A DNA stretch of 64,000 nucleotides from an uncultured bacterium (GTDB taxonomy: Bacteria > Patescibacteriota > Minisyncoccia > Phycocordibacterales > DATDWN01): contig CAVSGX010000004.1 in the NCBI GenBank assembly GCA_963727715.1, forward strand, positions 82,582 to 146,581, given 5' to 3'. Positions within the stretch are counted from its first letter, which is position 1. Each line of letters begins with the position of its first letter. Shown piece after piece: positions 1 through 63,076 of this stretch. Under the pieces are notes generated by a model. It saw nothing but the letters and a program-made list of their open reading frames with translations, searched no databases and had not been told where the DNA came from. Both the position numbers and the translations under genes were made by a program.

Positions 1-2495
<2,495 letters not shown>

Positions 2496-2978
2496 GCTCT
2501 TAAATTTCCCATTAGGAAATTTAAAAACCACTTCGCCAAAACATTTTGTAACCAAAAGTGTTTTGGACTTTAACTTCGTCCTGTTATATGAAATGAATCA
2601 TAGAACAGTTTTTACTTTTACTTTTTACCCCATCTGCATGGAAAGACCCCAAACATCTTGCGATATCTGAGAACCACACGATGGAATGTGCCCGATTCAA
2701 AACCTCGGTTTCTCCGCGAACAGTTTTTCAAGCAACTAGGCTTCCTGATTTTCACTGATTTTCATTAAAGCTGTTTTATTTGTTTTTTTCATCTTAGGAT
2801 GAAAAAAACCGCTTTTTAAGCGGGATTTTCGGACAACACTCAAAAGAGGGTCATCTATACCGCTGTAAAAAATGAAGTGAATTAAACATATCTGTAATGA
2901 GAGAAAGTATATACGAAGCAAAATATTTGTCAAATGAAAGCCCTTGTGGAAAAAGTGGGGATAAATAGGGGCCACAAA

Positions 2979-4655: not shown

Positions 4656-5044
4656 TATACACCCGAGCCACCCAAAAAAGCGACAGTTGACAAAAAAACA
4701 ATATGGTGATTAGATGATGGAGGAGGTTCGTGTGTTTTACATCAAAATGTTTGTCGTCGGACACAATTTATTCAATCCAGATAAATATTTTGGCCCATAC
4801 AATAGCGTACGTAAATGAAGCGATAGAGGACTTGTTAAAAAATGGCTGGATTCAATCAGATTGTTTAGGACGTTATTACTCAAAGAAGGGACTGGGAGTA
4901 ATATTGTTTGGGCGAGAAATGTTTAGGCGAGAAATGCAAGCATCAATTTTTAAGTTTGAAGACATCAAGGATTTTTGACTAAAAACTCGAGTGCCACGCA
5001 CCCGAGCTTTTCTTTTTTATTACACCTTACTTTTTACTCTCTAC

Positions 5045-5527
5045 TTATTTTAGTGTCACTTTGCCACCCGCCGATTCAATATCTTTCTTGACCTTTTCTG
5101 CATCTTCTTTCTTCATCCCCTCTTTGAGCATTGAAGGAGCGGCATCAACCAGATCCTTGGCCTCTTTGAGACCAAGCCCGAGAACCTCTTTGACCACTTT
5201 GATTACGGCAATTTTAGTTGCCCCACCGTCTGTCAGTTCAACATTGAATGTTGTTTTCTCCTCGCCAGCGCCGGCTCCTGGGCCAGCTACTGGGGTAGCC
5301 ACAGCCACGGTGGCCGCGGAGACTCCGAATTTTTCTTCCAAGTGCTTGACCAGTTCATGCAAATCCAAAACTGACATTTTTTCAATAGATTCGACAATTG
5401 TTTTGAATTTTGTCGGGGTTGAAACCCCGACGCCTTCAGGTCGGGACTCCGACTTCAACGTCGGAGCTGTTTTTTCTTCTTTTGCTTCGGTTTTTGCCGG
5501 AGCTGTTGTGTTTGTTGTTTCGTCCAT
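5045..5527 (-). CDS. rplL: Ribosomal protein L7/L12, with an N-terminal extension if the first Met is used.
   Basis: C-terminal domain ...[65 protein letters not shown]-terminal dimerisation helix [21 protein letters not shown]. Confidence 0.9.
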
Positions 5528-5550
5528 GATAATTTTTAATTTTAATAATT

Positions 5551-6039
5551 TTATTCTTTGCTTTTCGCAATTTCACTGAGAGCCATCACAAATCCCTGTA
5601 TCGGCGAGTTTATCAAATTGACAAACTGGGCCTGCAAAGTTTTCATGCCCGGGATCTGAGCAACAGAGACCATTTGGTTTTTATCCATAAATCTCCCCTC
5701 GAAAATTCCACCGACAATCTGGATTTTTTTGTCCAGCTTTTTCTGGAATTCATAAATCTCGCGAGCCGGATCCAAAAGATCCGAACCGAAAACAATGCCG
5801 AGTTCGCCGAGCATTTCCGGGGCCAGACCTTCAATTTTTTGACCTTCCAAAGCTTTTTTGGCCAGAGTTTTTTTGGCTACGGTATAACTGACACCTTTGA
5901 CACGCAGATTTTTTCTAATTTGCGAAGCTTCCGAAACGGATAAACCGTGGAAATTGACAAAAACCACTGAAATTGAGTCTTTGAAGACTTTTTTCAGTTT
6001 ATCGAAAATTTCTGATTTCTTTTGTTTTGATACTGCCAT
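5551..6039 (-). CDS. rplJ: Ribosomal protein L10.
   Basis: Immediately upstream of rplL. Typical L10 length and sequence (…[35 protein letters not shown]…). Confidence 0.9.
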
Positions 6040-6187
6040 TTGTTTTTTGTGTTTTTAACAAATTAAAAATCGACCTGAAGGTCGGGAGAATAGAAGCGAC
6101 ATTATGTCGTCTAAGTCTCGGTAGGGCTTATGATTGCCTACTGTCTTTGACCTTATAAACAGTATGATACTCGGAAATGAAAAAATG

Positions 6188-7597
6188 TCAATTCTCAACA
6201 AAAAGTCCACGAATGAAATTAAAACCGCGAATCGGCCAAGCGAAAATCCTGCTGATAAACCCCGGGCTAGATGTGGCCACAAAAACAGTGGCCGTTTGAC
6301 TGGAATTATTTGTTGCTGGTGGAATTTTGGTCTGTGATTTTGCTAGAGCCGGCGCTGAAATTGATGTTGAATTTTTTGGTATTTCTGCCGAGGCTAATGA
6401 AAACATCTGGGTAGGTATTGTTGTGGTTGAATTTATTTCCGATTGTAGTGAGGCTAATTTCTGACGAACACTTGAAATGCCGGTCAAAATGTCGTTTAGA
6501 TCCCCAATTGAAGTGGTGGAAATTACACTATTTGTTGCGACAATATTTTGACCGGGCAGACTGGCGTAGGTTTGGCCGAGTTGGTTTCTTATTTGCAAAT
6601 CGCCGGAGCCGAAGCCCAGATCAGTCAGATCATCGGCGAAAATAATTTTTTGGCCATCTAGTATTAAGGTGTCTTTAGGGAAAATAAATGACTTATTGGA
6701 CGAACCGAGAAGCCATCCTTCTAGATTTATTTCTGCCCCAGAATTGTTTGCCACTTCCAAACCGCCAGAAACTTTTCGAATGCTGATTTTCGGGTCAACC
6801 ACCAAAACTGTCAGCCGATCCGCGGCCATCTGATCAGAAGCGTTTGCGTTAACCACCACGGAATATTTCCCCGGAAACTTGTAGGCGTGATGAACAAGAC
6901 TGCCCGCATCGGTTGATCCATCGCCAAAAGACCATTCATAGTTGATTGAGTTTGAAATGATACCTTGCGTTTTAACGGGTTTAACAACGAACGTCAGATC
7001 ATTGCCGACAGAAGTCAAACGGTCTCGCCCGCACGATATTTCAAAATCAATTGTTATCTCGTCACTCGGTAAGGAAGCCGGAGAGGAGTTGGCCGACAAA
7101 TTTGAAGTAGTATTATTCTGGTTGTCTGTGCTGGTACTTTGATCTGTTGTGGTAGCGGTAGTTGTGGTTGATGTTTGATCTCCCCCGGGAACAGGTTGGC
7201 CTATGTAAATATGTTGACTTATGGTAGTAATCTGCACTTTAGCTTTGCTCAAAACCACTGCGGTGATGACAAAATCACCAGCTGTGGAATCTTCATAATA
7301 AACAGCGCGATTGGAATCACCGGTAGAGATATAGGCGCTTTTCAGCAGACCTCCAGTGCTGGTCAAAAATTGTCCTGTCGGTGAGGAAGAAGTGAAATCG
7401 AGATATGTCGTTTCGGTCACCGGACTGCTGGACTGCACATTTATTTTGCCAGACATTTGGCCCGCCGGCACACTTTGCGGATCAGTGCTGAAAGTAAATG
7501 AATTGTCCGCAAAAACCACCGACAAAATTGGTAAAAATATAAAAATGGATACAACAAAGAACAAATATTTAAAATTTCTCATATATAAGTTAGACAT
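6188..7597 (-). CDS. Secreted / membrane-anchored surface protein with a PKD-like and a lamin-tail (LTD)-like domain.
   Basis: N-terminal signal/TM segment. WSFGDGSTD...HAYKFPGKYSVVV is a PKD signature. NLEGWLLGSSNKSFIFPKDTLILDGQ is an LTD-like motif. Thr/Ser-rich linker. Confidence 0.6.
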   Translation of the reverse strand: MSNLYMRNFKYLFFVVSIFIFLPILSVVFADNSFTFSTDPQSVPAGQMSGKINVQSSSPVTETTYLDFTSSSPTGQFLTSTGGLLKSAYISTGDSNRAVYYEDSTAGDFVITAVVLSKAKVQITTISQHIYIGQPVPGGDQTSTTTTATTTDQSTSTDNQNNTTSNLSANSSPASLPSDEITIDFEISCGRDRLTSVGNDLTFVVKPVKTQGIISNSINYEWSFGDGSTDAGSLVHHAYKFPGKYSVVVNANASDQMAADRLTVLVVDPKISIRKVSGGLEVANNSGAEINLEGWLLGSSNKSFIFPKDTLILDGQKIIFADDLTDLGFGSGDLQIRNQLGQTYASLPGQNIVATNSVISTTSIGDLNDILTGISSVRQKLASLQSEINSTTTIPTQMFSLASAEIPKNSTSISAPALAKSQTKIPPATNNSSQTATVFVATSSPGFISRIFAWPIRGFNFIRGLFVEN

Positions 7598-20284: not shown

Positions 20285-21339
20285 CTTTCCAAAAGCGACA
20301 GGAATGAAATCAAGATTTTGTTGGACAAAAAATATTCACAGAGAGACATTGCTCTGTCCTTAGGCAGAAGCAACTCAACCATTTCGGAAGAAATCAAGCT
20401 TGGCTCGGTTAGAAGCAAATATGATCCGCTCAAAGCTCACCACAAAGCATATGTCAGACGGTGGCAGTCCAAATACCAAGCGATGAAAATAGTGGAAGAT
20501 ACAGAACTGAGAAATTTTGTGGAGAAAAAACTTTTGAAAGACGATTCACCGGTCAATATTTCAGGCAGAATCAAGAAGCATGAAAAATATCTGACAAACA
20601 TTTCCAAAAACAGCATATACAGATACATCGAAAGCCTGTATGGCAGAAGAATTGAAAATCACAGGAACAAAAGAAAACAGAGGAGAAAAAATTGCAGACC
20701 AAAGTCGGAAAAGCTCAAAGACAGAGTTTTCATCGCCAAAAGACCTAAATATATAGCCACTAGAAAAAGAATTGGTGATGCTGAAGCTGATTTCATTGTT
20801 TCCGGCAAAAGTGGCAAAGGAATATTGCTTGTTGTTGCAGACCGAAAGTCTAGGACTCCATTTTTGGAGAAAATACTTCCAACCACCATTACTGAAGTTG
20901 AAAAGGGGTTTTTGAAAATCAAAGAGAGATTTCCTGAACTGAAAACTTTGACTTTGGACAACGACATTCTTTTCAGGCATCATGTGAGACTTGAAAAACT
21001 TTTGAATATCAAAATATATTTTTGCAACCCGTACCACTCTTGGGAAAAAGGCACTGTTGAAAAAGTGAACCGAGAGATACGAAAAGACATTCCGAAAGGC
21101 AGCAACATTTCCAAATATTCCAGGCAATTCATCTGTTCGATTGAAGAGAAACTTCAAAACAAAATATACAAATGTTTGAACTACCACACCCCTTTTGAAG
21201 TCTTGAACAAGCACAGAAAAAGAAAAAACACCTCTGACTCCAATTAGTCAGGGTGTTCGGTTTGAGGGGGGTTCGCAGGTGCTACCTCCACTTGTCATTA
21301 TACACCTTTTAAATTTAAAGTCAAGTGGATTTTGAGGCC
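20210..21339 (+). mobile_element. IS30-family insertion sequence, copy A. Ends are approximate; putative imperfect terminal inverted repeats ggccctagattcc..cacttg / caagtggattttgaggcc.
   Basis: Encodes the IS30-type DDE transposase (see CDS 20256-21247). Size ~1.1 kb, typical for IS30. Confidence 0.5.
20256..21247 (+). CDS. IS30-family transposase, apparently frameshifted at the N-terminus. ATG 20256 is followed by an A7 run; the HTH continues in the -1 frame, and the ORF track starts at TTG 20318.
   Basis: The C-terminus LTLDNDILFRHHVRLEKLLNIKIYFCNPYHSWEKGTVEKVNREIRKDIPKG is colinear with the second IS30 transposase (36871-37815). The in-frame upstream sequence FSHLSKSDRNEIKILL aligns with FKHLSYEERVLISAL of copy B but has no in-frame ATG. 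Confidence 0.7.
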
Positions 21340-24099: not shown

Positions 24100-24327
24100 T
24101 TACAAAAACACTAATGTTTCTACTTCACCCTTTTCGTTAACATGCTGTATTTTACCTTTTCCTTCCAACATGGCGTAGATTTTGAAACTAAGCTTAATTG
24201 ATTTTCTAATGGCCCCAGCATGAGAAAGCGTATCACTTATTTTCTTAAGTCTTTTCAAATCGTCAAATTCCTCCGGAGACATATCTATTGAAACCCTGAC
24301 TCGTCTTTCCATATAGACCCTCTGCAA
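24100..24327 (-). CDS. Putative ribbon-helix-helix (CopG-like) DNA-binding protein.
   Basis: RVRVSIDMSPEEFDDLKRLKKISDTLSHAGAIRKSI fits a beta-strand plus two helices RHH pattern. Confidence 0.4.
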   Translation of the reverse strand: MQRVYMERRVRVSIDMSPEEFDDLKRLKKISDTLSHAGAIRKSIKLSFKIYAMLEGKGKIQHVNEKGEVETLVFL

Positions 24328-24347
24328 GCAATCCTACCTCACTAGAT

Positions 24348-25202
24348 TTATTTAGTCAATTTGAAATTTCTCACTGCATTTTTCACCAAAGTTTTTTTGA
24401 CCAAGTCGAGATTCTCACCGCGGATGCGGGCAATGGCTGAGACGACTTCTGGAACGTAGAGTGGAGAGTTGCGTTTGCCACGATATGGCGCCGGCGCGAC
24501 AAACGGCGCATCTGTTTCAGACATTATCATTTCAATCGGCGCGTAGCGAATATATTCATTATATTCGCTGGTAAAAGTGACAACGCCAGCGAAAGAAACA
24601 GTAAAGCCAATATTCAAAAATCTTTTCAAAACTTCCAAACCCCCGACAAAAAAGTGCGCGTTGCCATGAAGTTTTTCACCGACGGTTTTAGTATGATGTT
24701 CTAGAATTTCCAGAGCGTCGAAATACGCATCAAAATTTATTTTATCTGACGGACGGATGTGAAGCATCAAAGGCTTCCCGACAAGAAGTGACAGTTCAAT
24801 TTGTTTTTCAAAAATTTCTTTTTGGGCTTTTTTTATTTTCTCCGCGTCTTCAGTTAGACGGAAATAATCCAGTCCGCACTCGCCGATAGCCACGACTTTT
24901 GGATTTTTGGCCAGTTCGGAAATTCTCTCGTCAAATCCACCTGGTAAATTTTCGGGGTGTTGGCCAACACAGGCAAAAATATTTTCGTGCTTTTCAGCAA
25001 GCTCAATTTCTTTTTTTGAAGTATCAAAATCAACACCGACGGAAATGGTGCCGATTTTACTTTTCTTCATTCCTGAAATTATTTCTTCCCTGTCCGCGTT
25101 GTAATCAGGAAATGACAAGTGTGAGTGTATATCAAAATATTCAAACATTTTAATCTTTTCGCAAAAAGAGCGGTTTTTCTGGAGATTTGTTTTCTTTAAC
25201 AA
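24348..25202 (-). CDS. TatD-family metal-dependent DNase/hydrolase.
   Basis: FDIHSHL...VVAIGECGLDYFR...LMLHIR are TatD signature segments. Confidence 0.85.
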   Translation of the reverse strand: MLKKTNLQKNRSFCEKIKMFEYFDIHSHLSFPDYNADREEIISGMKKSKIGTISVGVDFDTSKKEIELAEKHENIFACVGQHPENLPGGFDERISELAKNPKVVAIGECGLDYFRLTEDAEKIKKAQKEIFEKQIELSLLVGKPLMLHIRPSDKINFDAYFDALEILEHHTKTVGEKLHGNAHFFVGGLEVLKRFLNIGFTVSFAGVVTFTSEYNEYIRYAPIEMIMSETDAPFVAPAPYRGKRNSPLYVPEVVSAIARIRGENLDLVKKTLVKNAVRNFKLTK

Positions 25203-35929: not shown

Positions 35930-36064
35930 TTTGGTTCCAAATTTGCAAATTAAAAAGCCCACAGGCAATGTTGGTATCCTAGCAGATATTGATTTTTATT
36001 TCAAGCCCCGTTGTAGTGTTGACTTACGTAACCAAAATAGTACCATAGCTAGCGGAGGTCTGTT

Positions 36065-36292
36065 ATGAAATTAGAATCAATTTGCCGGGGAATGCATGAC
36101 AACCCTAAAGAAACAGTTGTTGATATTGAAATAATAGCGGAGACAGCAGAAGAAGAGGAAATCATTAACAGGGCGGCGACAATGGTGATGGTTCAAGACA
36201 TACAAAGTATGGGTAAGATGAGCCTATCATCCGCTTGTCACCTCGTCGCAAAACGTGCTCTTAGCATAAGTTTCTACAAAAGAACGGTCTAG
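36065..36292 (+). CDS. Small hypothetical acidic protein (75 aa), antisense-embedded between rplC and rpsJ.
   Basis: GGAGG Shine-Dalgarno 6 nt upstream of ATG 36065. Stop codon sits in the loop of a perfect 20-nt palindrome followed by a T-run. Confidence 0.4.
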   Translation: MKLESICRGMHDNPKETVVDIEIIAETAEEEEIINRAATMVMVQDIQSMGKMSLSSACHLVAKRALSISFYKRTV

Positions 36293-39772: not shown

Positions 39773-40543
39773 TCAGCGGGTCTGACGCTGGCGGTTGAGA
39801 CTGACCATCCAGGTCTGACTATCGACCCGTTGGTAGTAATTGTTCCGGTTCAAGTAAACCGAGAACTGCGCGGTGGCGATGCCACCGTCCGCCGGACGAG
39901 CAACCGCAGTCAGCTGAATCGGCACATTGTCCGAGTCGAGAAGCCCAAGAAAGAAAGTCATGGTCATCGAACCTCTCGGGCAGAGGTTGCGCGCCACAAC
40001 ACCTTTAGAACTCGCGATCTCAATCGGCAACGCGCTTGTGTTGACGACACGCACCACCACCGACTGGTAAATCCGCGTCACCCAGTGCGGAGGTTCAACC
40101 TCCGGATTGACCCAGAAGTTTCCGTCGGGGCACCCGGTGATTTGCGCGTCCGCGATGACCCGCCTAGCTTCGCGCTTGATCTTCGCCTGTTGTTTCTCCT
40201 CGTGAGCGATTTGCCTTTCGGCTTGCTTCATCGCCGGAGACTCGGCCTTGTGCGCTTCGCGCTCGGCCTTTTTCAGGTTAGCGTTGGCTTCGATGGCAAG
40301 TGCCCTCAGGCGAACGATCTTCTCCCGATCGGTCTCGCCGGCGGGTGCTGTTGTCGGCGTTGTGTTCTTTTTTGATTCCTTCTCCTTCTTGACTTTGGTG
40401 GTCTTACCGGCCACCTTGTCCAACTCGCTTTGGAGCGCCGGCGTCTGAGCTTGCGCCCAAACTGCACCGGAAAAAGAAAAGAAAATGACTATGGTTGCGA
40501 CCGTCAAATTTGATTTGTGCATGGCTTGTACCTCTACTGACAA
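39773..40543 (-). CDS. Secreted hypothetical protein with a coiled-coil region, encoded in a GC-rich island (~39730-40545).
   Basis: Signal peptide MHKSNLTVATIVIFFSFSGAVWAQA. Lys/Glu-rich coiled-coil. GC content visibly higher than the flanking DNA. Confidence 0.55.
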   Translation of the reverse strand: MSVEVQAMHKSNLTVATIVIFFSFSGAVWAQAQTPALQSELDKVAGKTTKVKKEKESKKNTTPTTAPAGETDREKIVRLRALAIEANANLKKAEREAHKAESPAMKQAERQIAHEEKQQAKIKREARRVIADAQITGCPDGNFWVNPEVEPPHWVTRIYQSVVVRVVNTSALPIEIASSKGVVARNLCPRGSMTMTFFLGLLDSDNVPIQLTAVARPADGGIATAQFSVYLNRNNYYQRVDSQTWMVSLNRQRQTR

Positions 40544-40584
40544 TTATACACCTTTTCACATTTTTTGTCAAGTTCAATTTACAG

Positions 40585-48353: not shown

Positions 48354-48965
48354 TTACATAGCCACCCCAGTAATCCAAGTAAACTCATGCGAAACGATTG
48401 GTAACATAAATTGCCATAAAAAGAAAATGAAGAAAAGTAAAATCAAAAAACCGTATCGTTCAAAAAATGGGCGGACACTTTGCCAACGGTACGGCAGAAA
48501 AGAAAAAATAATTTTGGAACCGTCCAGTGGCGGAATCGGCACGAGGTTGAATGTAGCCAAAATCAAATTGATGAAAACTATCGTGCCAGCAATGTAGACA
48601 AAACCGTCGCCGAGTGCATAGAGCAAACCAAAACGCAACAGAAGACCAAAGAAAAGGGCGACACAAATGTTGGCCAAGGGTCCGGCGATGGCCACGATGG
48701 CCTCGCCCCATTTTTGATTGCGCAAGTTGTACGGATTGAAAGGCACGGGCCTGGCCCAACCGATGATGAAGCCACCGAGAAAATACGAAATGACCGGCAA
48801 AATGAAAGAGCCGAACCACTCCAAATGTTTCAGTGGGTTAAGTGTCAATCGCCCGGCATACTTGGCTGTGTTGTCGCCCTGAAAATAGGCGGCATAGCCG
48901 TGCGAGACCTCGTGAACAACGATCGACATTATCAATATTAAAATGGAAAAAATAAAAGTAATCAT
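48354..48965 (-). CDS. M50-family intramembrane metalloprotease (site-2 protease-like, small form).
   Basis: HEVSH (HExxH) within TM1. Polytopic membrane protein with a second conserved ...LNPLKHL... region. Confidence 0.65.
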   Translation of the reverse strand: MITFIFSILILIMSIVVHEVSHGYAAYFQGDNTAKYAGRLTLNPLKHLEWFGSFILPVISYFLGGFIIGWARPVPFNPYNLRNQKWGEAIVAIAGPLANICVALFFGLLLRFGLLYALGDGFVYIAGTIVFINLILATFNLVPIPPLDGSKIIFSFLPYRWQSVRPFFERYGFLILLFFIFFLWQFMLPIVSHEFTWITGVAM

Positions 48966-49103
48966 GAGAAAATTTCTAATTTTTAATTTCTAATTGACCT
49001 AAACAATAACCAATCTCTAAGTCCCAATGCCCAAAATTTTTGGTTGGTCATTTGTTACTGGAATTTATTTAGAAATTAGATTAATTAGAAATTAGAAATT
49101 TGA
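48966..49103. promoter_or_regulatory. AT-rich upstream region with TAGAAATT / AATTTCTAA repeat boxes. The proximal and distal boxes are identical to those upstream of comEC (62259-62404).
   Basis: Proximal box gagaaaatttctaatttttaatt abuts the start codon. Distal box ttagaaattagattaattagaaatt. Both are 23-25 nt identical between the two loci. Confidence 0.6.
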
Positions 49104-55201: not shown

Positions 55202-55600
55202 AAAGAAATCCACCACTCACTTTGTGTTTGGTGGACAATTAACAACTAACTATTTTATTCAAACTCAATTTTCTCGATCCCAAGATCACAAGGATCAACA
55301 AAATCAACTTCTAATCTTGGATTCCCTGGCTCCCCGGTTTTTGAACACTTTCCATTTGATAAAACCTTAACAACCACGGGACAACCTCCATGAGAATACA
55401 AAAAGTATATTAGGTGATTTTCTCTAAAAAAACCATGTTCCACGAAAGCAAGTCGGCTACGACGAATTACTCTCGCTTTATTACCCACATCTACCATTTG
55501 CTGTAACTGCGGCATCATTACCTCCGGAGGTATACTAGCACATATTACAATAAAGGCAACGGACTCGCATTATAAAAAATATTATGATATAAAGTTTTAA

Positions 55601-57034: not shown

Positions 57035-57036
57035 TG

Positions 57037-57110
57037 TCCGCCCTCCACGACTCGAACGTGGGACCCTCGAGGTATAAGCTCGATGCTCTAACCAACTGAG
57101 CTAAGGGCGG
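57037..57110 (-). tRNA. tRNA-Ile with anticodon UAU. CCA is not encoded.
   Basis: Perfect cloverleaf CCGCCCT-TA-GCTC-AGTTGGTTA-GAGC-A-TCGAG-CTTATAC-CTCGA-GGGTC-CCACG-TTCGAGT-CGTGG-AGGGCGG-A. Anticodon loop CU-UAU-AC. Confidence 0.8.
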
Positions 57111-57449: not shown

Positions 57450-59387
57450 TTACACTTGATGTTCAATATCCATTTTCTGTTTCGGAGTGATGCCGTGAGA
57501 AATCAGGATTTGCTCAAACTCCGGTCTCTCGATTGTTTCCACATCCATCAGACGTTTGGCGATGGCGTCAAGAAGCGGACGGTTTTCGGTGATGGTGTTT
57601 ATGGCTTTGCTTTCAGCCTCTTTCATAATGCGCGAAACTTCAGCATCAATATCGGCAGCCACTTTCTCGGAAAATTCTTTTTCTTCCACACCGCGACCGA
57701 ACAAAACTTTGCCACCCTGCCCTTCCAGCGCCACCGGTCCGAGTTTTTCCGACATCCCATATTTCGTGACCATATCGCGAGCCAAAGCGGTGGAAACCTG
57801 CAAATCGTTTGATGGTCCTGTGGTCAAATCATCAAAAAGCATTCTCTCGGTCACATAACCGCCGAGGGAAACAGCGATGTCGTCCAGAAATTCTTTTTTG
57901 GATTGCAGTTTTTTGTCTTCAAACGGCAGTTTCAAAACATAACCGGCGGCGTGCCCGCGCGAGATGATGGAAATTTTGTGCACCGGATCGGCATACGGCA
58001 AAATGGAAGCCAAGACGGCATGGCCGGCTTCGTGGTAAGCGGTGATTTCTTTTTCTTTTTTGGAAAGAATGTGACTTTTGCGTTCCGGCCCGAGCATCAC
58101 TTTTTCTATGGAGCGAATTAAATCATACTGCGAAACTTTTTGGCGATTTTCGCGCGCGGCTAAAATAGCGCCTTCGTTCATCAGCGAATACAGATCGGCG
58201 CCGGAAAATCCGGGTGTGCGTTCGGCGATGACTTTCAGATTGACATCCTCGGCGAAGGGTTTTTTGACAGCATGCACTTTCAAAATTTCTTCGCGGTCGG
58301 CCCGATCTGGCAAGTCCAACGTGACCCGTCGGTCAAATCTGCCCGGTCGCAAAAGAGCGGGGTCTAAAACATCTGGACGGTTTGTCGCCGCCATGACAAT
58401 CACTTTTTCGTTCGGTTCAAAACCATCCATTTCCACCAAAATCTGATTGAGGGTTTGTTCGCGTTCGTCATTCCCGCCACCGGCGCCAACACCGCGAATT
58501 CTGCCGACCGCGTCAATTTCATCCACAAAAATAATGGCTGGCGCGTTTTTCTTGGCCATTAAAAATAGATCACGCACACGCGAAGCGCCGACACCAACAA
58601 ACATTTCCACGAACTCCGAACCGGAAATGGAAAAGAAAGCTACACCGGCCTCTCCCGCCACAGCCCGAGCTAGCAAAGTTTTGCCTGTGCCAGGCGCGCC
58701 CATGAGTAGTATGCCTTTTGGAATTCGCGCCCCGATGTCTAGAAACTTTTTTGGATTTTTCAAAAAATCCACAATTTCTGAAAGTTCTTCTTTGGCTTCT
58801 TTGCAACCGGCCACATCTTTGAATGTCACGCGTTGCGATTTGTCGTTCGGATCAATCATTCTAGCTTTGGATTGGCCAAAAGTCAGAGCTTGCATCCCTG
58901 CCCCGCGAACTTGCCGACTGATAAACCAAATAAAAATCAAAATAAAAAGCAGAGGAAAAATAATCGGAGCCAAATTGACCATCCAATAACCAAAACCTGT
59001 ATCTTCTTTGACAGTGATGCTAACTTTCCCGATGTCAGCTGGGGCCAAACCATAATTGACCAATGTTTGCGACAGAGCCTCGCCCGATTCTTTCTTGGCG
59101 TTTTTGATATCACCATTTTTGTATGTCAGTTGCAAATCGTCGCCTGTCACCACGATGCTAGTTACACTGCCGACTTTGATGTCTGTTGAAATTTGCGAAA
59201 GAGAAACGGTCGGCACCGATTTGGTTTTGTTGGAAATGTAGGAATAAGCCGAGGACAGCACAGCAAAAATAATTATTACCGATAAAATATATGTCAAAAT
59301 AGACCAGCCACTTTCCGGGTTGTCTTTCTTGTTCGGCGATTTTTTGATGATTATTTTGGTTGGTTTTTTTGGATTTTCCGGGTTCAT
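57450..59387 (-). CDS. ftsH: ATP-dependent zinc metalloprotease FtsH.
   Basis: N-terminal TM helices. AAA module GAPGTGKT...; protease HEAGHA. Confidence 0.97.
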
Positions 59388-59502
59388 AGGTCAATACAAT
59401 AACATAAAGACAGAAAAAAAGAAACGGTCTTCATTGTTTGTTCAGATTCATTCTGTTAGAATTAGTGCTCGGTCAGCAGATTTTAATATAAAAAATAAAA
59501 AT

Positions 59503-60102
59503 ATGATAAAACAATTTCAAGAAAAAAAATTTAATATTGGCTCGCTTGTCGGCATTTCGGAGAAAACAATGGGAGAACATTTGAAACTTTACGCCGGCTA
59601 TGTAAAAAATTCGAACGCTGTGGTTGAGAAGATCGCCGAATTTTCACAGGACACGGAGAAAAATGCATATCTTCTCGGCGAGCTTTTTCGGCGTTTCAGT
59701 TTTGAATACAACGGAATGCGCAATCATGAGTTGTATTTTGACAGTTTGTCTGATGGGGCTAAATCATTTTCGCAAGACAGTAATCTTGCAAAAATGATCG
59801 CCCGAGATTTCGGTTCGTTTGATTTATGGCTTTCGCAATTCAAAATTTTGGCCACTACTCGCGGAGTCGGCTGGGCAATGCTTTGGTACGACAGAAAAGA
59901 CGACCGATTGCTTTGCTCGTGGATTGATGAACAACATTTGGGACAACTCTCCGATTGCGCGCCGATTTTGGCTTTGGATATGTGGGAACACTCCTTCGTG
60001 GCCGATTACCAGCCAAGTGGCAAGAAAAAATACATTGAAGATTTTTTCACAAATCTGAATTGGCAGAAAGTTGAAAAAAATTATCTGGATGCAACAAAAT
60101 AA
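59503..60102 (+). CDS. sod: Fe/Mn superoxide dismutase-like protein. Start at ATG 59503.
   Basis: DMWEHSFVADY (D-x-W-E-H), GVGWAMLWYD, NHELYF. Confidence 0.65.
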   Translation: MIKQFQEKKFNIGSLVGISEKTMGEHLKLYAGYVKNSNAVVEKIAEFSQDTEKNAYLLGELFRRFSFEYNGMRNHELYFDSLSDGAKSFSQDSNLAKMIARDFGSFDLWLSQFKILATTRGVGWAMLWYDRKDDRLLCSWIDEQHLGQLSDCAPILALDMWEHSFVADYQPSGKKKYIEDFFTNLNWQKVEKNYLDATK

Positions 60103-60115
60103 AATTAAATATAAT

Positions 60116-60415
60116 TTAAGACCGCCCTTTCTCGGCGGCCCATTTTGCTTGCATCCTCATAAGATTCCGACTTCGCCCTCTGTGACGATTTGCCTCTACC
60201 AAATGAGATAACAGATAATCACACCTTTTAAGAGCTCTTTGAAAATTCTTAGTGAGACTCTTTTTTTGGCCAAAAACTTTTTCACAACATTTTACTAAGC
60301 GACTTCCAAGATGAACTAATCTCCGATATTCTTCAACACCGAGATTTTCAGGACCTTTAGACGTTTTTAGACAAATTCTAAACAATCTTCGTTCCAAACT
60401 TTGTTTGTAATTCAC
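60116..60415 (-). CDS. Hypothetical basic protein (100 aa, GTG start).
   Basis: Perfect AAGGAGG Shine-Dalgarno 5 nt upstream of GTG 60415. Consensus promoter TTGACT-16-TATTAT upstream. Confidence 0.5.
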   Translation of the reverse strand: MNYKQSLERRLFRICLKTSKGPENLGVEEYRRLVHLGSRLVKCCEKVFGQKKSLTKNFQRALKRCDYLLSHLVEANRHRGRSRNLMRMQAKWAAEKGRS

Positions 60416-60432
60416 AATAACCTCCTTTTGGA

Positions 60433-60506
60433 ATAATATGCTAGTTTTTAAAATAGTCAAATAAAAAATGCGGGGTGGTTGACTTTTAGTTTTAAGATGA
60501 TAATCT
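60433..60506. promoter_or_regulatory. Back-to-back consensus sigma70 promoters for the divergent pair. Plus strand: TTGACT 60479-60484 / TAATCT 60501-60506. Minus strand: TTGACT as rc of 60455-60460 / TATTAT as rc of 60433-60438.
   Basis: Hexamers and spacers read directly from the sequence. Confidence 0.55.
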
Positions 60507-60525
60507 GTCACCGGAGGTAATTTTC

Positions 60526-60768
60526 GTGGGTAATAATGCAAATACTTGCAAAGAATTGAATTTGGAATTGGTGAATGAAATGTCCACGGCTCTGATAAGA
60601 GCCCACCGGATTATTGGCTGTTTATACATAACAGCCACTTTAAAAGCCAGCCAAGCGACAAGAAACTTAGTAGTTGCTCAAGTTGCTGAAGCTTCTCAAA
60701 TTGGGTACAGAGAAGCTAAGGGACTTTTGGAGAGAGCTGAAAGAATATACGAATTGCCTGATGAATAA
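60526..60768 (+). CDS. Hypothetical small protein (80 aa, GTG start).
   Basis: GGAGG Shine-Dalgarno 8 nt upstream; consensus promoter upstream. Confidence 0.45.
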   Translation: MGNNANTCKELNLELVNEMSTALIRAHRIIGCLYITATLKASQATRNLVVAQVAEASQIGYREAKGLLERAERIYELPDE

Positions 60769-60785
60769 ATTCTGGGGCGGAAGCT

Positions 60786-62258
60786 TCAGGATTTTCTTTT
60801 TTGCAAAAAATACAAACCGGTGCCGATGAGTGTGTAAATTAAAATGACAACCCACGGCGAAAACGCCGGTAAAATGAATGAGCCGAAATAAAGTGTGGCA
60901 CCGATGTGGACAATGGTGAGCTGGTACCACAAAAGAGCATATGAAAAAATAGCCGGAATGTATGAAAGCCACAAAGAAAACATTCCGAAAAACCCCGTAA
61001 GAAAACCGAGAAACATCGCGCTTGGCACTGTGGCCAAAATCAAAATGTTGACGGGCAGAGCGACGAGCGAAAGAATGCCGGTTTGATAAATTAGAAAAGG
61101 CAGAACAACGAGCTGTGTGGAAATTGTGGCTGAAACGATTTCACGCATGCCAAATTTTTCCGGCACGCGAGTTAAGTGCGGTTCCAGAAAAGGCGAAACG
61201 AAAATAATGCCGATGGTGGCCAAAACCGAAAGTTGAAAAGAGACATCAAAAACCAAAAGCAAAGGATTCCAAAAAATCATCAGGACAACGGCCAGACCGA
61301 AAGCTCGGGCCACGCTATACTCTCTGCCGAACTTTCGAGCAATCAAAGCAGTCAAAACCATTATGGTCGCGCGCACAGCCGAAGCCCCGCCACCGGCCAA
61401 AATGGTGAACAAAATAATTCCGAGCGAACCGATTAGAAACGAAAATGTGGCCGGTAAAAAAGAAAAGAAAGCGATGACACTTTCGGCCACAATGGTAATG
61501 TTGTAGCCGGACAAGACCACCACATGCGAGACACCGGCACGGGCAAATTCAGAGAGCCACTCTTTGCCCAGCGACTGTTTGGCGCCGAGCAAAAGTCCGG
61601 CCGAGAGGTCTGACTCCGGTGGTGGCAGGCTTCGATTCATAGCCGAGACAAAAGTATTTTTTATTTTGAACAAATATTTTTTAATCACACTGCCGTGGTT
61701 TTGCGAAAGTAATTTCGGATAAACAAAACCGGCGGTGTACCAGATGCCCCGAACACGCAGATATCCGCCGTAATCAAACTCGCGGTCATTTGATTTTATT
61801 TTAGCCGGCAAAGAAAGTTTAGCCGAAAAAGAAATTTGATCACCGTAAGAAAATTGCGGATACAGTTCAGTAGTGATTAAAATTTTTTCGGAAAAAGGTT
61901 CGGTTGTCGTACCAACTTTGGCCAATTGCAAAAGAACGGTGAGCATTGCGGCTTTCTCGCGAACATCCGGCTCGTCAACTATGATGCCGACGAATTCGGT
62001 TTTTTTGTTTTCAAACTGGGAAAGAGTTGACGCGCGATAATTGTCAGAAAAATGCATTCGTGTCATGCCAAATATCGCGCCCAAAATAAAAATGGAAATA
62101 AAAAACAACAACCATTGTTGATTTTTTTGAACAAAAAATGAATAACTGAAAATCAGAAACCCGAAACAAACCACAATCAACACCAAACCCCAACTCGGAA
62201 AAATAAAAGAACCAATAAATATTCCGATGATAAAACCGAAAATTAAAGAGAGGATCAT
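60786..62258 (-). CDS. comEC: Competence protein ComEC/Rec2 (DUF4131 plus Competence domains only; no fused MBL domain).
   Basis: ~10 TM helices. Conserved ...LSAGLLLGAKQSLGKEWLSEFARAGVSHVVVLSGYNITIVA.... Confidence 0.75.
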   Translation of the reverse strand: MILSLIFGFIIGIFIGSFIFPSWGLVLIVVCFGFLIFSYSFFVQKNQQWLLFFISIFILGAIFGMTRMHFSDNYRASTLSQFENKKTEFVGIIVDEPDVREKAAMLTVLLQLAKVGTTTEPFSEKILITTELYPQFSYGDQISFSAKLSLPAKIKSNDREFDYGGYLRVRGIWYTAGFVYPKLLSQNHGSVIKKYLFKIKNTFVSAMNRSLPPPESDLSAGLLLGAKQSLGKEWLSEFARAGVSHVVVLSGYNITIVAESVIAFFSFLPATFSFLIGSLGIILFTILAGGGASAVRATIMVLTALIARKFGREYSVARAFGLAVVLMIFWNPLLLVFDVSFQLSVLATIGIIFVSPFLEPHLTRVPEKFGMREIVSATISTQLVVLPFLIYQTGILSLVALPVNILILATVPSAMFLGFLTGFFGMFSLWLSYIPAIFSYALLWYQLTIVHIGATLYFGSFILPAFSPWVVILIYTLIGTGLYFLQKRKS

Positions 62259-62404
62259 GAGAAATTTCTAATTTTTAATTAACCTAATTTCTAAATAAAT
62301 TCTAATGACCAAATAACAAATTAGAAACTAAATCTGCTAGATCAGATTTTATTTTGAAATTGGTTATTGTTTAAAAATTAGAAATTAGATTAATTAGAAA
62401 TTTT
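62259..62404. promoter_or_regulatory. TAGAAATT-repeat upstream element, second copy (see 48966-49103).
   Basis: gagaaatttctaatttttaatt ... ttagaaattagattaattagaaatt. Confidence 0.6.
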
Positions 62405-63076
62405 TTCAAACCCAGAAATTATTTCCGCTTCTTCTTCCGGCGAGCGGGCTTTTTTGTATTTGGCGCCGGAAACACCGATGGTGTGCGCTCGGCAATCTTC
62501 CCAAGTTTTGTGCGTTGTGACAATGCCACCTACAAGAGAAACGTATGAGTAAGCGTAGATTCGCGACGGTTTGGCTGGTTTATTTTTCTCCGGCAAAGAG
62601 AGCGAGATGCCGTAACGCGAGAGCGAGCCGATATACAAAACAACCGGTTTCTTGTCGGCAAAAGATGTGGCAATAATGTCGCATCTCTCGTTGGCCGGAA
62701 TACCGGAATGCCCTTTCAGCAGTTGCCAATCTATTTTTTTCTTGGTTCGCGCTGTGGCAAGAAGCCTTTCCCACAAATCGCGATTCAAAACATCTTGCTT
62801 TTGCGAAGTTTGCCAATTATTTTTTTGCCAACCTAAAACCCAGCGTGTCGCACCGGAGAGAACATAAGCTGAATCGGTGTAAACGACAATCGGATCGCTG
62901 AAGCCGGCTTTTTCCAATCCGGAAATGGCCGCCAAAAGTTCCATTCTGTTGTTTGTGGTGTGCTCTTCCCCACCACCGAGTTCTGTCACCGTCTCGTCGG
63001 TGGCCAAAATAGTGCCCCAACCGCCCGGTCCGGGATTCCCTCTGGCCGCCCCATCTGTGAAAATAGTTGTGGTCAT
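62390..63076 (-). CDS. rnhA: Ribonuclease HI with a C-terminal hybrid-binding (Cauli_VI-like) domain.
   Basis: N-terminal RNase H fold (IFTDGAARGNPGPGGWG...TNNRMEL...VYTDSAY...HSGIPANERCD). The C-terminal segment YAYSYVSLVGGIVTTHKTWEDCRAHTIGVSGAKYKKARSPEEEAEII matches the HBD pattern. Confidence 0.8.
   Translation of the reverse strand: MTTTIFTDGAARGNPGPGGWGTILATDETVTELGGGEEHTTNNRMELLAAISGLEKAGFSDPIVVYTDSAYVLSGATRWVLGWQKNNWQTSQKQDVLNRDLWERLLATARTKKKIDWQLLKGHSGIPANERCDIIATSFADKKPVVLYIGSLSRYGISLSLPEKNKPAKPSRIYAYSYVSLVGGIVTTHKTWEDCRAHTIGVSGAKYKKARSPEEEAEIISGFEKISN

What the first reader, a model, noticed from the sequence alone, without database searches (positions are those of the whole stretch)
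60116..60768. Divergent pair of small genes with textbook promoters and Shine-Dalgarno sites in a genome whose other genes mostly lack Shine-Dalgarno sequences
A 100-aa basic protein (minus, GTG 60415, AAGGAGG Shine-Dalgarno) and an 80-aa protein (plus, GTG 60526, GGAGG Shine-Dalgarno) are transcribed from overlapping back-to-back promoters. Both are exact TTGACT -35 hexamers with 16-nt spacers, followed by TATTAT (minus) and TAATCT (plus). The local GC content is higher than in neighbouring genes. The strong canonical signals contrast with the Shine-Dalgarno-less starts of recA, ftsK, tuf and rpsL here. This suggests a recently acquired regulatory or toxin-antitoxin-like module. Neither protein has a motif I recognise.
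Basis: partly seen in the sequence, partly recalled or inferred. Interest (0 to 1): 0.55.

Follow-up and report, generated by a model that had tools for sequence, protein, structure and literature searches.

The report
Orphan divergent small-gene pair, Parcubacteria
Two small genes found in no other sequenced organism sit back to back in a much-rearranged spot of a tiny-genome (Parcubacteria) bacterium; their classic promoter and ribosome-binding signals are unusual for this genome's housekeeping genes but recur before several of its other small genes, and their function is still unknown.

Summary
The sequence features are real. OrfM (60415-60116, minus, 99 aa) and orfP (60526-60768, plus, 80 aa) start at GTG behind AAGGAGG and GGAGGT. 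They are driven by back-to-back TTGACT promoters and each ends at a hairpin.

Ordinary genes here do not use Shine-Dalgarno (SD) sequences: 4 of 47 long genes have an SD core, which equals background. Local GC is lower than in the neighbours, not higher. The promoters do not overlap, and the plus -10 matches only 3 of 6 positions.

The pair fills a 683-nt gap between convergent SOD and ComEC genes. These genes are usually adjacent in relatives, but about a third of relatives carry unrelated cargo there, so it is a variable hot spot.

Neither protein has a homologue in any protein, phage, plasmid, viral or metagenome search. The only orfM hit, to TALE-like repeat proteins, is a repeat-amplified artefact.

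OrfP looks coding: host-like dicodon score and a confident helical hairpin. OrfM is very basic, has atypical codon usage and folds with low confidence.

The same compact -35/-10/SD/start layout occurs six times in the window against 0.045 expected, mostly before small ORFs. The signals therefore mark a native minority class, not necessarily foreign DNA.

Verdict: a lineage-specific orphan gene pair. The toxin-antitoxin or regulator reading is untested and unsupported.

The parts
60116..60415 (-). OrfM: 99-aa orphan ORF with a GTG start. Very basic (pI 10.7, net charge about +17, 4 Cys), predicted all-helical.
   Evidence: Translation and composition. AlphaFold2 single-sequence model: pLDDT 58.8, three helices. 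Only self hits among 5.8 billion clusters, and no credible hit among 1.84 billion representatives. Dicodon score -0.37, which is in the non-coding range, and GC3 0.28.
60421..60427 (-). Shine-Dalgarno AAGGAGG, 5 nt upstream of the orfM GTG.
   Evidence: AAGGAGG occurs only 3 times in the 64-kb window on both strands.
60433..60460 (-). Promoter of orfM: -35 TTGACT (60460-60455), 16-nt spacer, -10 TATTAT (60438-60433). The -10 ends 5 nt before the SD, so the predicted leader is about 12 nt.
   Evidence: Promoter scan, 10 of 12 matches. Layout shown.
60479..60506 (+). Promoter of orfP: -35 TTGACT (60479-60484), 16-nt spacer, -10 TAATCT (60501-60506), preceded by TG at 60498-60499 (extended -10 type).
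   Evidence: Sequence read. It did not pass the scan, because the -10 matches only 3 of 6. It is part of the composite pattern hit.
60513..60518 (+). Shine-Dalgarno GGAGGT, 7 nt upstream of the orfP GTG.
60526..60768 (+). OrfP: 80-aa orphan ORF with a GTG start. Mildly acidic (pI 5.8), predicted helical hairpin.
   Evidence: Translation. AlphaFold2: pLDDT 81.1, helices 3-38 and 43-75. Dicodon score +0.24, the best of six frames and above 99.4% of non-coding frames. Only a self hit. Foldseek found only generic designed hairpins, E > 0.5.
60119..60141 (.). GC-rich hairpin (CCGCC-ctttctc-GGCGG core) between the SOD stop (60102) and the orfM 3' end. It is terminator-like for both convergent transcripts and overlaps the last codons of orfM.
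   Evidence: Sequence. The hairpin appears in the RNA fold of the minus transcript. It was not listed by the terminator scan, so the terminator role is inferred.
60767..60794 (.). Hairpin of 12 pairs followed by a T-run, starting at the orfP stop and spanning the ComEC stop (60786). Terminator-like for orfP.
   Evidence: Terminator scan and fold.
60103..60785 (.). The whole 683-nt lineage-specific insert between convergent SOD (59434-60102, plus) and ComEC (60786-62258, minus).
   Evidence: Flanking genes identified. Synteny and gap sizes. No DNA similarity to any fetched locus except the same-species Logan contig L001.

Best explanation
The region is a lineage-specific insert carrying two real, independently expressed orphan genes. 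It sits at a junction (SOD -> <- ComEC) that acts as a cargo hot spot in Paceibacterota/Parcubacteria.

Each gene is a compact monocistronic unit: a sigma-70-type -35/-10, then 5-6 nt, then a strong SD (GGAGG[T]), then 5-8 nt, then GTG, the ORF, and a hairpin shared with the convergent neighbour.

Shown:
- The ORFs, signals and hairpins.
- The absence of the pair from relatives.
- The variability of the junction.
- The SD-poor background.
- The recurrence of the same cassette layout before other small ORFs in this genome and clade.

Inferred:
- The -10 lies so close to the SD that transcripts should start at or just before it, giving a leader of about 12 nt. Translation would then depend on SD/anti-SD pairing. 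Most housekeeping genes here instead use AT-rich leaders without an SD, or have a -10-like box 5-7 nt before the ATG, suggesting leaderless mRNAs.
- The canonical signals therefore mark a native minority expression class used mainly by small, fast-evolving genes, rather than proving foreign origin.

Function is speculative and low confidence. OrfP is a helical-hairpin protein that probably oligomerises into a helical bundle. OrfM, if translated, is a strongly basic helical protein suited to binding nucleic acid. It may act on the shared 110-nt control region, where TAGTTTT(T)AA occurs in both promoter spacers.
For: Gene-like structure:
- ORFs, SD sites, promoters and terminators.
- Chance of two such ORFs in the gap is P = 0.0018.
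- OrfP has a host-like dicodon score, best of six frames, and pLDDT 81.
- The same sequence appears in an independent Logan assembly that differs by 11 SNPs elsewhere, so it is not an assembly artefact.

Lineage-specific insert in a hot spot:
- SOD/ComEC/RNase H synteny holds in 74 loci. In 48 the gap is 206 nt or less. In 26 it is 316-5173 nt and, in those checked, holds unrelated cargo: an EcoRI-type methylase with GmrSD/HNH and Bro-N, NUDIX, tRNA_bind, YbjQ, NADAR, a kinase, and other orphans.
- No homologue of either ORF was found anywhere.

SD class:
- SD-poor background.
- GGAGG is enriched in intergenic DNA and positioned before ORFs, compared with permuted motifs.
- The composite cassette occurs 6 times against 0.045 expected.
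- The same layout precedes orphan orf4730 and the 89-aa orphan in L003's own SOD/ComEC gap.
Against: - OrfM scores like non-coding sequence under the host dicodon model: -0.37, below 99% of real gene chunks and only second of six frames. Its model has low confidence (pLDDT 59).
- There is no sequence variation in the pair between the two available strains, so purifying selection could not be tested.
- No transcript or protein data are available.
- The 16S rRNA is not in the window, so presence of the anti-SD is only inferred. Published work reports loss of the anti-SD motif in about half of Parcubacteria (PMC9297842).
- The plus promoter -10 is weak.
- The functional roles proposed for OrfM and OrfP rest only on charge and predicted helices.
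Confidence: 0.6

Rival explanations
1. Only orfP is a gene. OrfM, or both ORFs, are chance or decaying ORFs in an expanded spacer, and the minus-strand promoter and SD are fortuitous or drive a short non-coding transcript.
For: - OrfM's dicodon score is in the non-coding range and not the best frame.
- Its pLDDT is 58.8.
- It has no homologues even in an exhaustive HMMER search.
- A single ORF of 99 or more codons arises in 4% of simulated gaps.
Against: - AAGGAGG occurs only 3 times in 64 kb, yet one copy sits 5 nt before the GTG and 5 nt after a 10-of-12 promoter.
- The ORF runs exactly from that start to the hairpin.
- The joint cassette pattern is expected 0.045 times per window.
- The minus transcript shows no unusual RNA structure (z = -1.2) and has no Rfam match.
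Confidence: 0.17
2. A toxin-antitoxin-like or defence-associated two-protein module. The basic OrfM would be the toxin and the acidic helical OrfP its neutraliser, parked in a defence and cargo hot spot.
For: - Sizes (99 and 80 aa) and the charge asymmetry (pI 10.7 against 5.8) resemble type II pairs.
- The same junction carries a methylase with GmrSD/HNH in another genome.
- The pair is strain- or lineage-specific.
Against: - The genes are divergent with separate promoters, not a co-directional autoregulated operon.
- There is no hit in PADLOC, Pfam, NCBIfam or PDB.
- No recognisable antitoxin DNA-binding fold appears, such as ribbon-helix-helix, helix-turn-helix or AbrB.
- Most cargo at this junction in other genomes is not defence-related.
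Confidence: 0.1
3. De novo gene birth. The two ORFs arose in place from spacer DNA that gained promoter/SD cassettes, rather than being imported.
For: - There are no homologues at any level in very large databases.
- The ORFs have low GC3, GTG starts and simple all-helical predicted folds.
- A third cassette-driven singleton orphan (orf4730) has the same features.
- The analogous gap in L003 holds a different orphan with the same cassette.
Against: - Closest relatives have only 0-60 nt at this junction, so 683 nt of raw material must have come from somewhere.
- OrfP already has host-like dicodon usage.
- This cannot be distinguished from import from unsampled donors or from rapid divergence.
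Confidence: 0.1
4. OrfM is a degenerate relic of a TALE-like DNA-binding repeat protein.
For: The exhaustive HMMER search gave E = 4.9e-10, 6.6e-5 and 7.2e-5 to three long proteins with 33-aa '..LEHLVKVAAHNGGSKNLE..' repeats. OrfM residues 57-85 align with them.
Against: - The score is the sum of 7-9 near-identical repeats.
- The best single stretch is 9.3 bits, with E = 1.7e5 for the library.
- BLAST pieces of 25-29 bits are far below significance for a library of 2.4e11 residues.
- OrfM has no tandem repeat, and its model shows an unbroken helix where the RVD (repeat-variable diresidue) loop would be.
Confidence: 0.02

Closest known systems
Strain- or lineage-specific orphan (ORFan) small genes in variable 'hot spots' between conserved convergent genes
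   Same: - Conserved flanks (SOD, ComEC, RNase H) with variable content between them across 74 genomes.
- Lower GC3 than core genes.
- No homologues.
- Own promoters and terminators.
   Different: - No integrase, repeats, att-like duplication or tRNA at the borders was found, so the insertion mechanism is unknown.
- The cargo is only 683 nt.
Type II toxin-antitoxin pairs
   Same: Two adjacent small proteins of 80-100 aa, one very basic and one acidic, in accessory DNA.
   Different: - Divergent monocistronic genes instead of a co-directional operon.
- No family match.
- No antitoxin-type DNA-binding domain.
Divergent repressor/antirepressor switches such as lambda cI/cro (PRM/PR back-to-back promoters)
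   Same: - Two small genes transcribed divergently from back-to-back promoters within a 110-nt control region.
- A short repeat, TAGTTTT(T)AA, occurs in both promoter spacers.
   Different: - Neither protein shows a helix-turn-helix by Pfam or in the AlphaFold models.
- There is no phage context and no phage homologue.
- The repeat is short and its significance was not tested.
SD-poor bacteria with a minority of SD-led genes (for example Bacteroidetes, and Parcubacteria subgroups reported to lack the anti-SD; Tsurumaki et al. 2022, PMC9297842)
   Same: Housekeeping genes lack an SD. rplJ-rplL is not preceded by rplK/rplA, as in the uL1-lacking Parcubacteria that the paper discusses.
   Different: GGAGG(T) is enriched and correctly positioned before a subset of mostly small genes. 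This suggests the anti-SD is retained and used, but it could not be checked because the 16S gene is outside the window.

Membership tests
Type II toxin-antitoxin system | Two genes in one co-directional, usually overlapping or closely spaced, operon | tested here: not met
   OrfM is on the minus strand and orfP on the plus strand. They are divergent, 110 nt apart, and each has its own promoter and terminator.
Type II toxin-antitoxin system | Sequence or profile match of either protein to a known toxin or antitoxin family | tested here: not met
   No hit in Pfam, NCBIfam, PADLOC or PDB sequences at E <= 10. One weak partial PHROG hit of unknown function.
Type II toxin-antitoxin system | Toxicity of one product, neutralised by the other | not testable with these tools
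   Needs expression experiments.
TALE-like repeat proteins | Tandem array of 33-35-aa repeats with an RVD (repeat-variable diresidue) loop | tested here: not met
   OrfM has at most one repeat-length match. The best single-domain score is 9.3 bits, and the whole-sequence E-value arises from summing 7-9 copies in the targets.
cI/Cro-type divergent transcriptional switch | At least one helix-turn-helix DNA-binding protein | tested here: not met
   No helix-turn-helix family hit. The models show a three-helix rod-like protein and a two-helix hairpin. The orfM model has low confidence, so this is weak.
cI/Cro-type divergent transcriptional switch | Repeated operator sites overlapping both promoters | tested here: inconclusive
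   TAGTTTTTAAAAT (60441-60453) and TAGTTTTAAGAT (60487-60498) lie in the two spacers (read). The repeat finder did not report them, and no significance test was done.
Known structured RNA (Rfam family, tRNA or tmRNA) | Covariance-model or ARAGORN match in 59900-61000 | tested here: not met
   No match reached a gathering score, and the best match had E = 0.26. Fold z-scores are -1.2 and -2.8.
SD-led bacterial gene | GGAGG-type motif 4-9 nt upstream of the start codon | tested here: met
   AAGGAGG-5 nt-GTG for orfM and GGAGGT-7 nt-GTG for orfP.
SD-led bacterial gene | Complementary anti-SD (CCUCC) at the 3' end of this organism's 16S rRNA | not testable with these tools
   The 16S gene is not in the window. 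Published data show loss of the motif in about half of Parcubacteria. Indirect support for retention comes from the positional enrichment of GGAGG.
Genomic-island or hot-spot cargo | Conserved flanks with variable, unrelated content across relatives | tested here: met
   74 syntenic loci. In 48 the gap is 206 nt or less, and in 26 it is 316-5173 nt; the cargo families checked are unrelated to one another.
Genomic-island or hot-spot cargo | Mobility signatures (integrase, flanking direct repeats, tRNA target) | tested here: not met
   There are no convincing flanking repeats and no integrase within the 683 nt. The nearest tRNA is 3 kb away.

The most novel reading that the evidence does not exclude
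In this SD-poor Parcubacterium, and to a lesser degree in its clade, a compact self-contained cassette forms a separate expression regime used preferentially by small, fast-evolving or orphan genes. The cassette is TTGAC(T/A), 16-17 nt, a -10 box, 5-7 nt, GGAGG(T), 3-8 nt, then the start codon, giving a leader of about 12 nt. These genes appear in gaps between conserved genes, and the orfM/orfP pair is a double, back-to-back example. If so, SD-dependent initiation is retained in an otherwise SD-independent translation system mainly to serve young or accessory genes. The cassette could also be the vehicle by which new small genes become expressed.
Probability: 0.2. Interest if true: 0.6.

Novelty: new member of a known kind. 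Interest (0 to 1): 0.35.

Why it matters
The pair itself is an ordinary case of lineage-specific orphan genes in a variable junction of a candidate-phyla-radiation (CPR) genome, and nothing points to a specific new mechanism.

What could matter is the pattern behind it. In a genome whose core genes ignore the Shine-Dalgarno mechanism, strong SD sites fused to near-consensus promoters recur before small, mostly orphan ORFs. If real transcripts and proteins are confirmed, this would give a simple sequence signature for finding genuine small genes in CPR genomes, where gene callers are unreliable. It would also show that two translation-initiation regimes coexist in one reduced genome. The SOD/ComEC junction is also a usable marker locus for studying gene gain in Paceibacterota.

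Tried and rejected
- Structured RNA. An Rfam gathering scan of the whole window, a permissive scan of 59900-61000 and ARAGORN found nothing in the region. RNA folding z-scores were unremarkable.
- Protein families. Pfam, NCBIfam, PHROGs and PADLOC gave nothing significant. PDB sequence search gave nothing.
- Homologues in large databases. The word-indexed search of 5.8 billion clusters gave only self hits for orfM, orfP and orf4730, and each cluster has one member.
- Exhaustive HMMER search with orfM. It hit TALE-like repeat proteins, but this was rejected as repeat-amplified weak similarity.
- Related DNA. tblastn and phmmer against 160 fetched loci, against the ORFs lying in their SOD/ComEC gaps, and against the window itself found no relatives or paralogues. 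blastn of the 683-nt insert found nothing.
- Mobile-element sources. Searches of phage, plasmid, IMG/VR and JGI metagenome collections with the proteins found nothing.
- Fold searches. Only generic helical hairpins and bundles came back, with E > 0.5. The afdb50 library was unavailable.
- dN/dS between the window and the Logan strain. This was impossible because there are no SNPs in the pair.
- Flanking repeats as insertion scars. None were convincing.
- Higher local GC as a sign of foreign origin. The GC is in fact lower.

Full report
**What the window is**

Conserved genes identify a Patescibacteria (CPR) genome of the Paceibacterota/Parcubacteria type. The Fe/Mn superoxide dismutase (SOD) next to the finding is at most 71% identical to any of 185,579 species representatives. 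All best matches are Paceibacterota, Minisyncoccia or Nomurabacteria MAGs. Flanking genes were confirmed by Pfam:
- FtsH: 57450-59387, minus strand.
- SOD: 59434-60102, plus strand.
- ComEC: 60786-62258, minus strand.
- RNase H: 62390-63076, minus strand.

**Checking the observation**

The two ORFs are exactly as described.
- OrfM runs from GTG 60415 to the stop at 60116 and encodes 99 aa. AAGGAGG (60427-60421) lies 5 nt before its GTG.
- OrfP runs from GTG 60526 to 60768 and encodes 80 aa. GGAGGT (60513-60518) lies 7 nt before its GTG.
- The minus promoter, TTGACT-16-TATTAT, was found by the scan with 10 of 12 matches.
- The plus promoter, TTGACT-16-TAATCT, has only 3 of 6 matches in the -10 and failed the scan. 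It is preceded by TG, which makes it a possible extended -10.
- The -35 hexamers are 18 nt apart, so the promoters are back to back but do not overlap.
- A hairpin of 12 pairs with a T-run starts at the orfP stop.
- A GC-rich hairpin lies between the SOD stop and the orfM 3' end.

The GC claim is wrong. The region has GC 0.33-0.42 while its neighbours have 0.42-0.54. GC3 is 0.28 for orfM and 0.33 for orfP, against 0.46 +/- 0.07 for long genes.

The claim about SD use is right. Only 4 of 47 long genes have an SD 4-mer at -22 to -4. That is 8.5%, identical to the background at random positions. Only 2 of 47 have a 5-mer. A few more appear if alternative starts are allowed. Many long genes have AT-rich upstream regions. 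Five or six have a -10-like box 5-7 nt before the ATG, which suggests leaderless mRNAs.

**More than chance?**

- Markov simulations of the 683-nt gap give two non-overlapping ORFs of 80 or more codons with P = 0.0018. A single ORF of 99 or more codons arises with P = 0.041.
- AAGGAGG occurs only three times in the window.
- The composite pattern is -35, then 15-18 nt, then TAnnnT, then 3-9 nt, then [AG]GAGG, then 1-10 nt, then a start codon. It is expected 0.045 times per window in shuffles but occurs six times, two of them being this pair.
- The same sequence is present in an independent Logan assembly (ERR11594402). That assembly differs from the window by 11 SNPs in FtsH and ComEC, so the locus is not an assembly artefact. 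None of those SNPs falls in the pair, so selection on the ORFs could not be measured.

**Genomic context**

SOD -> <- ComEC <- RNase H is conserved in 74 of the fetched species-representative loci. In 48 of them the gap between the two stop codons is 206 nt or less, and often the genes abut or overlap. In 26 it is 316-5173 nt. The cargo in those gaps is unrelated from genome to genome:
- An EcoRI-type adenine methylase with a GmrSD/HNH nuclease and a Bro-N protein.
- NUDIX.
- A tRNA-binding domain.
- YbjQ.
- NADAR.
- A P-loop kinase.
- Other small orphans.

The closest sister found has 80% ComEC identity (L082) and a different sequence downstream of ComEC. The junction is therefore a hot spot for gene gain, and the 683-nt insert here is lineage-specific. 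I found no integrase, flanking repeats or tRNA target.

**Are they related to anything?**

No.
- Pfam, NCBIfam and PADLOC give nothing, and PHROGs gives one weak partial hit.
- The 5.8-billion-cluster search returns only the proteins themselves, in singleton clusters.
- tblastn against all fetched loci, phages, plasmids, IMG/VR and JGI metagenomes finds nothing.
- PDB sequence search finds nothing.

The exhaustive HMMER search with orfM reported three TALE-like repeat proteins at E = 4.9e-10 to 7e-5. The domain table shows that the best single stretch scores 9.3 bits, with E = 1.7e5. The total score is the sum of 7-9 nearly identical repeats (BLAST pieces of 25-29 bits). I reject this as homology.

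**Are they coding?**

I trained a dicodon model on the window's long genes.
- OrfP scores +0.24. This is the best of six frames, above 99.4% of non-coding frames and within the range of real genes. AlphaFold2 on the single sequence gives a confident helical hairpin (pLDDT 81). Foldseek returns only generic or designed hairpins.
- OrfM scores -0.37. This is in the non-coding range and second of six frames. Its model has pLDDT 59 and three helices, with no meaningful structural match.
- OrfM is extremely basic (25 K/R, pI 10.7, about +17), while orfP is mildly acidic.

I consider orfP very probably a real gene. OrfM is probably real because of its start signals and length, but its codon usage is atypical.

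**The wider pattern**

The same compact layout recurs elsewhere in the window:
- Orf4730 (4730-4978, plus strand, 82 aa): TTGACA-17-TTAGAT-5-AGGAGG-3-GTG, followed by a terminator. It is also a singleton orphan.
- The ORF at 36065-36292.
- The ORF at 55255-55515.
- An ORF within 24100-24327, starting at about 24312.
- A 249-aa gene at 39773-40522.

GGAGG is 2-3 times more frequent in intergenic DNA than same-composition permutations, and it precedes seven ORFs against 0-2 for the permutations. None of the small ORFs tested has a Pfam family.

In 1.81 Mb of related loci the composite pattern is much rarer: 9 hits, against 3 in a shuffle. However, 7 of those 9 precede ORFs of 64-94 aa. One of these is the unrelated 89-aa orphan that occupies L003's own SOD/ComEC gap.

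The -10 box ends 5-7 nt before the SD, so transcripts should begin at the SD and leaders should be about 12 nt. This is inference. The canonical signals therefore look like a native minority expression class that is enriched among small genes. They do not by themselves indicate foreign origin.

Published work reports that the anti-SD motif is missing from about half of Parcubacteria 16S genes, mostly in uL1-lacking lineages (PMC9297842). Here rplJ-rplL is not preceded by rplK/rplA. The 16S gene is outside the window, so the anti-SD could not be checked. The positional enrichment of GGAGG argues that it is retained.

**Interpretation**

Best explanation (confidence about 0.6): a lineage-specific insert carrying two independently transcribed, SD-dependent orphan genes in a cargo hot spot. 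Function is unknown. My low-confidence guess is that OrfP is an oligomerising helical-hairpin protein and OrfM a basic nucleic-acid-binding protein. OrfM might act on the shared 110-nt control region, where TAGTTTT(T)AA occurs in both promoter spacers.

Rivals:
- OrfM, or both ORFs, non-coding (0.17).
- A toxin-antitoxin-like or defence module (0.10). The charge and size pattern and the hot spot fit, but the divergent arrangement and the lack of any family match do not.
- De novo origin (0.10).
- A TALE-like relic (0.02).

**Novelty and score**

Orphan small genes in variable junctions are a known kind, so this is a new member of it. The specific proteins are new families by default, but there is no functional lead. 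The recurring promoter-SD cassette in an SD-poor CPR genome is the most interesting by-product and deserves a genome-wide test. Interest: 0.35.

Noticed in passing
window 4680-5015: A third orphan with the same design: TTGACA-17-TTAGAT-5-AGGAGG-3-GTG, an 82-aa ORF (4730-4978, plus strand), then a hairpin terminator. It sits between a 195-aa gene and rplL. It is a singleton in the 5.8-billion-cluster database and has atypical codon usage.
   Followed up: partly
window 36019-36292, 55255-55559, 24100-24359, 40522-40571, 21289-21324: Further matches to the compact -35/-10/SD cassette.
- One drives a 75-aa plus-strand ORF lying antisense between rpsJ and rplC.
- One drives an 86-aa ORF whose SD is part of the palindrome ACCTCCGGAGGT.
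- One (21324, minus strand; perfect TTGACT-16-TATAAT followed by GGAGGT) has no ORF behind it and could be a small RNA.
   Followed up: partly
window 412-2513 and 370-446: The 23S rRNA match spans model positions 1-2925 in only 2.1 kb with a low score (790 bits). A tRNA-Ala(TGC) overlaps its 3' end on the same strand. No 16S gene lies upstream. This points to a reduced or rearranged and unlinked rRNA locus.
   Followed up: no
window 57036-57110: A tRNA-Ile with anticodon TAT (UAU) was called by both ARAGORN and Rfam. This is an uncommon way for bacteria to decode AUA.
   Followed up: no
window 5045-7597: rplJ-rplL is preceded by a 469-aa PKD-domain protein rather than rplK-rplA. This is consistent with the uL1-lacking Parcubacteria, in which loss of the anti-SD has been reported (PMC9297842).
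   Followed up: partly
window 62256-62300 and 48963-49000 (also about 49075-49100): ComEC and the 203-aa membrane ORF 48354-48965 share an almost identical 22-nt leader, TAAAAATTAGAAATTT(T)CTC-ATG. A related ATTAGAAATTAGAAAT lies nearby. This may be a shared regulatory or initiation element.
   Followed up: partly
window 58194-61949 vs L001: An independent Logan assembly of the same species differs by 11 SNPs. Six are synonymous in FtsH. Three are synonymous and two non-synonymous in ComEC. None lies in the 2.4 kb from 58957 to 61379 that holds SOD and the pair, where about 7 would be expected at the average rate.
   Followed up: partly
L060 10603-15776; L010/L017/L019/L036 at about 8.6-9.1 kb: One relative carries a defence island (EcoRI-type methylase, GmrSD/HNH, Bro-N) in the SOD/ComEC junction. 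Four relatives share a weakly conserved 65-94-aa ORF about 1 kb upstream of SOD, driven by the same promoter-SD cassette.
   Followed up: partly
window 57450-60102 vs L002-L081: FtsH lies divergently next to SOD only in this genome. None of the 80 species-representative loci has FtsH within 10 kb of SOD, so the left side of SOD has also been rearranged.
   Followed up: no
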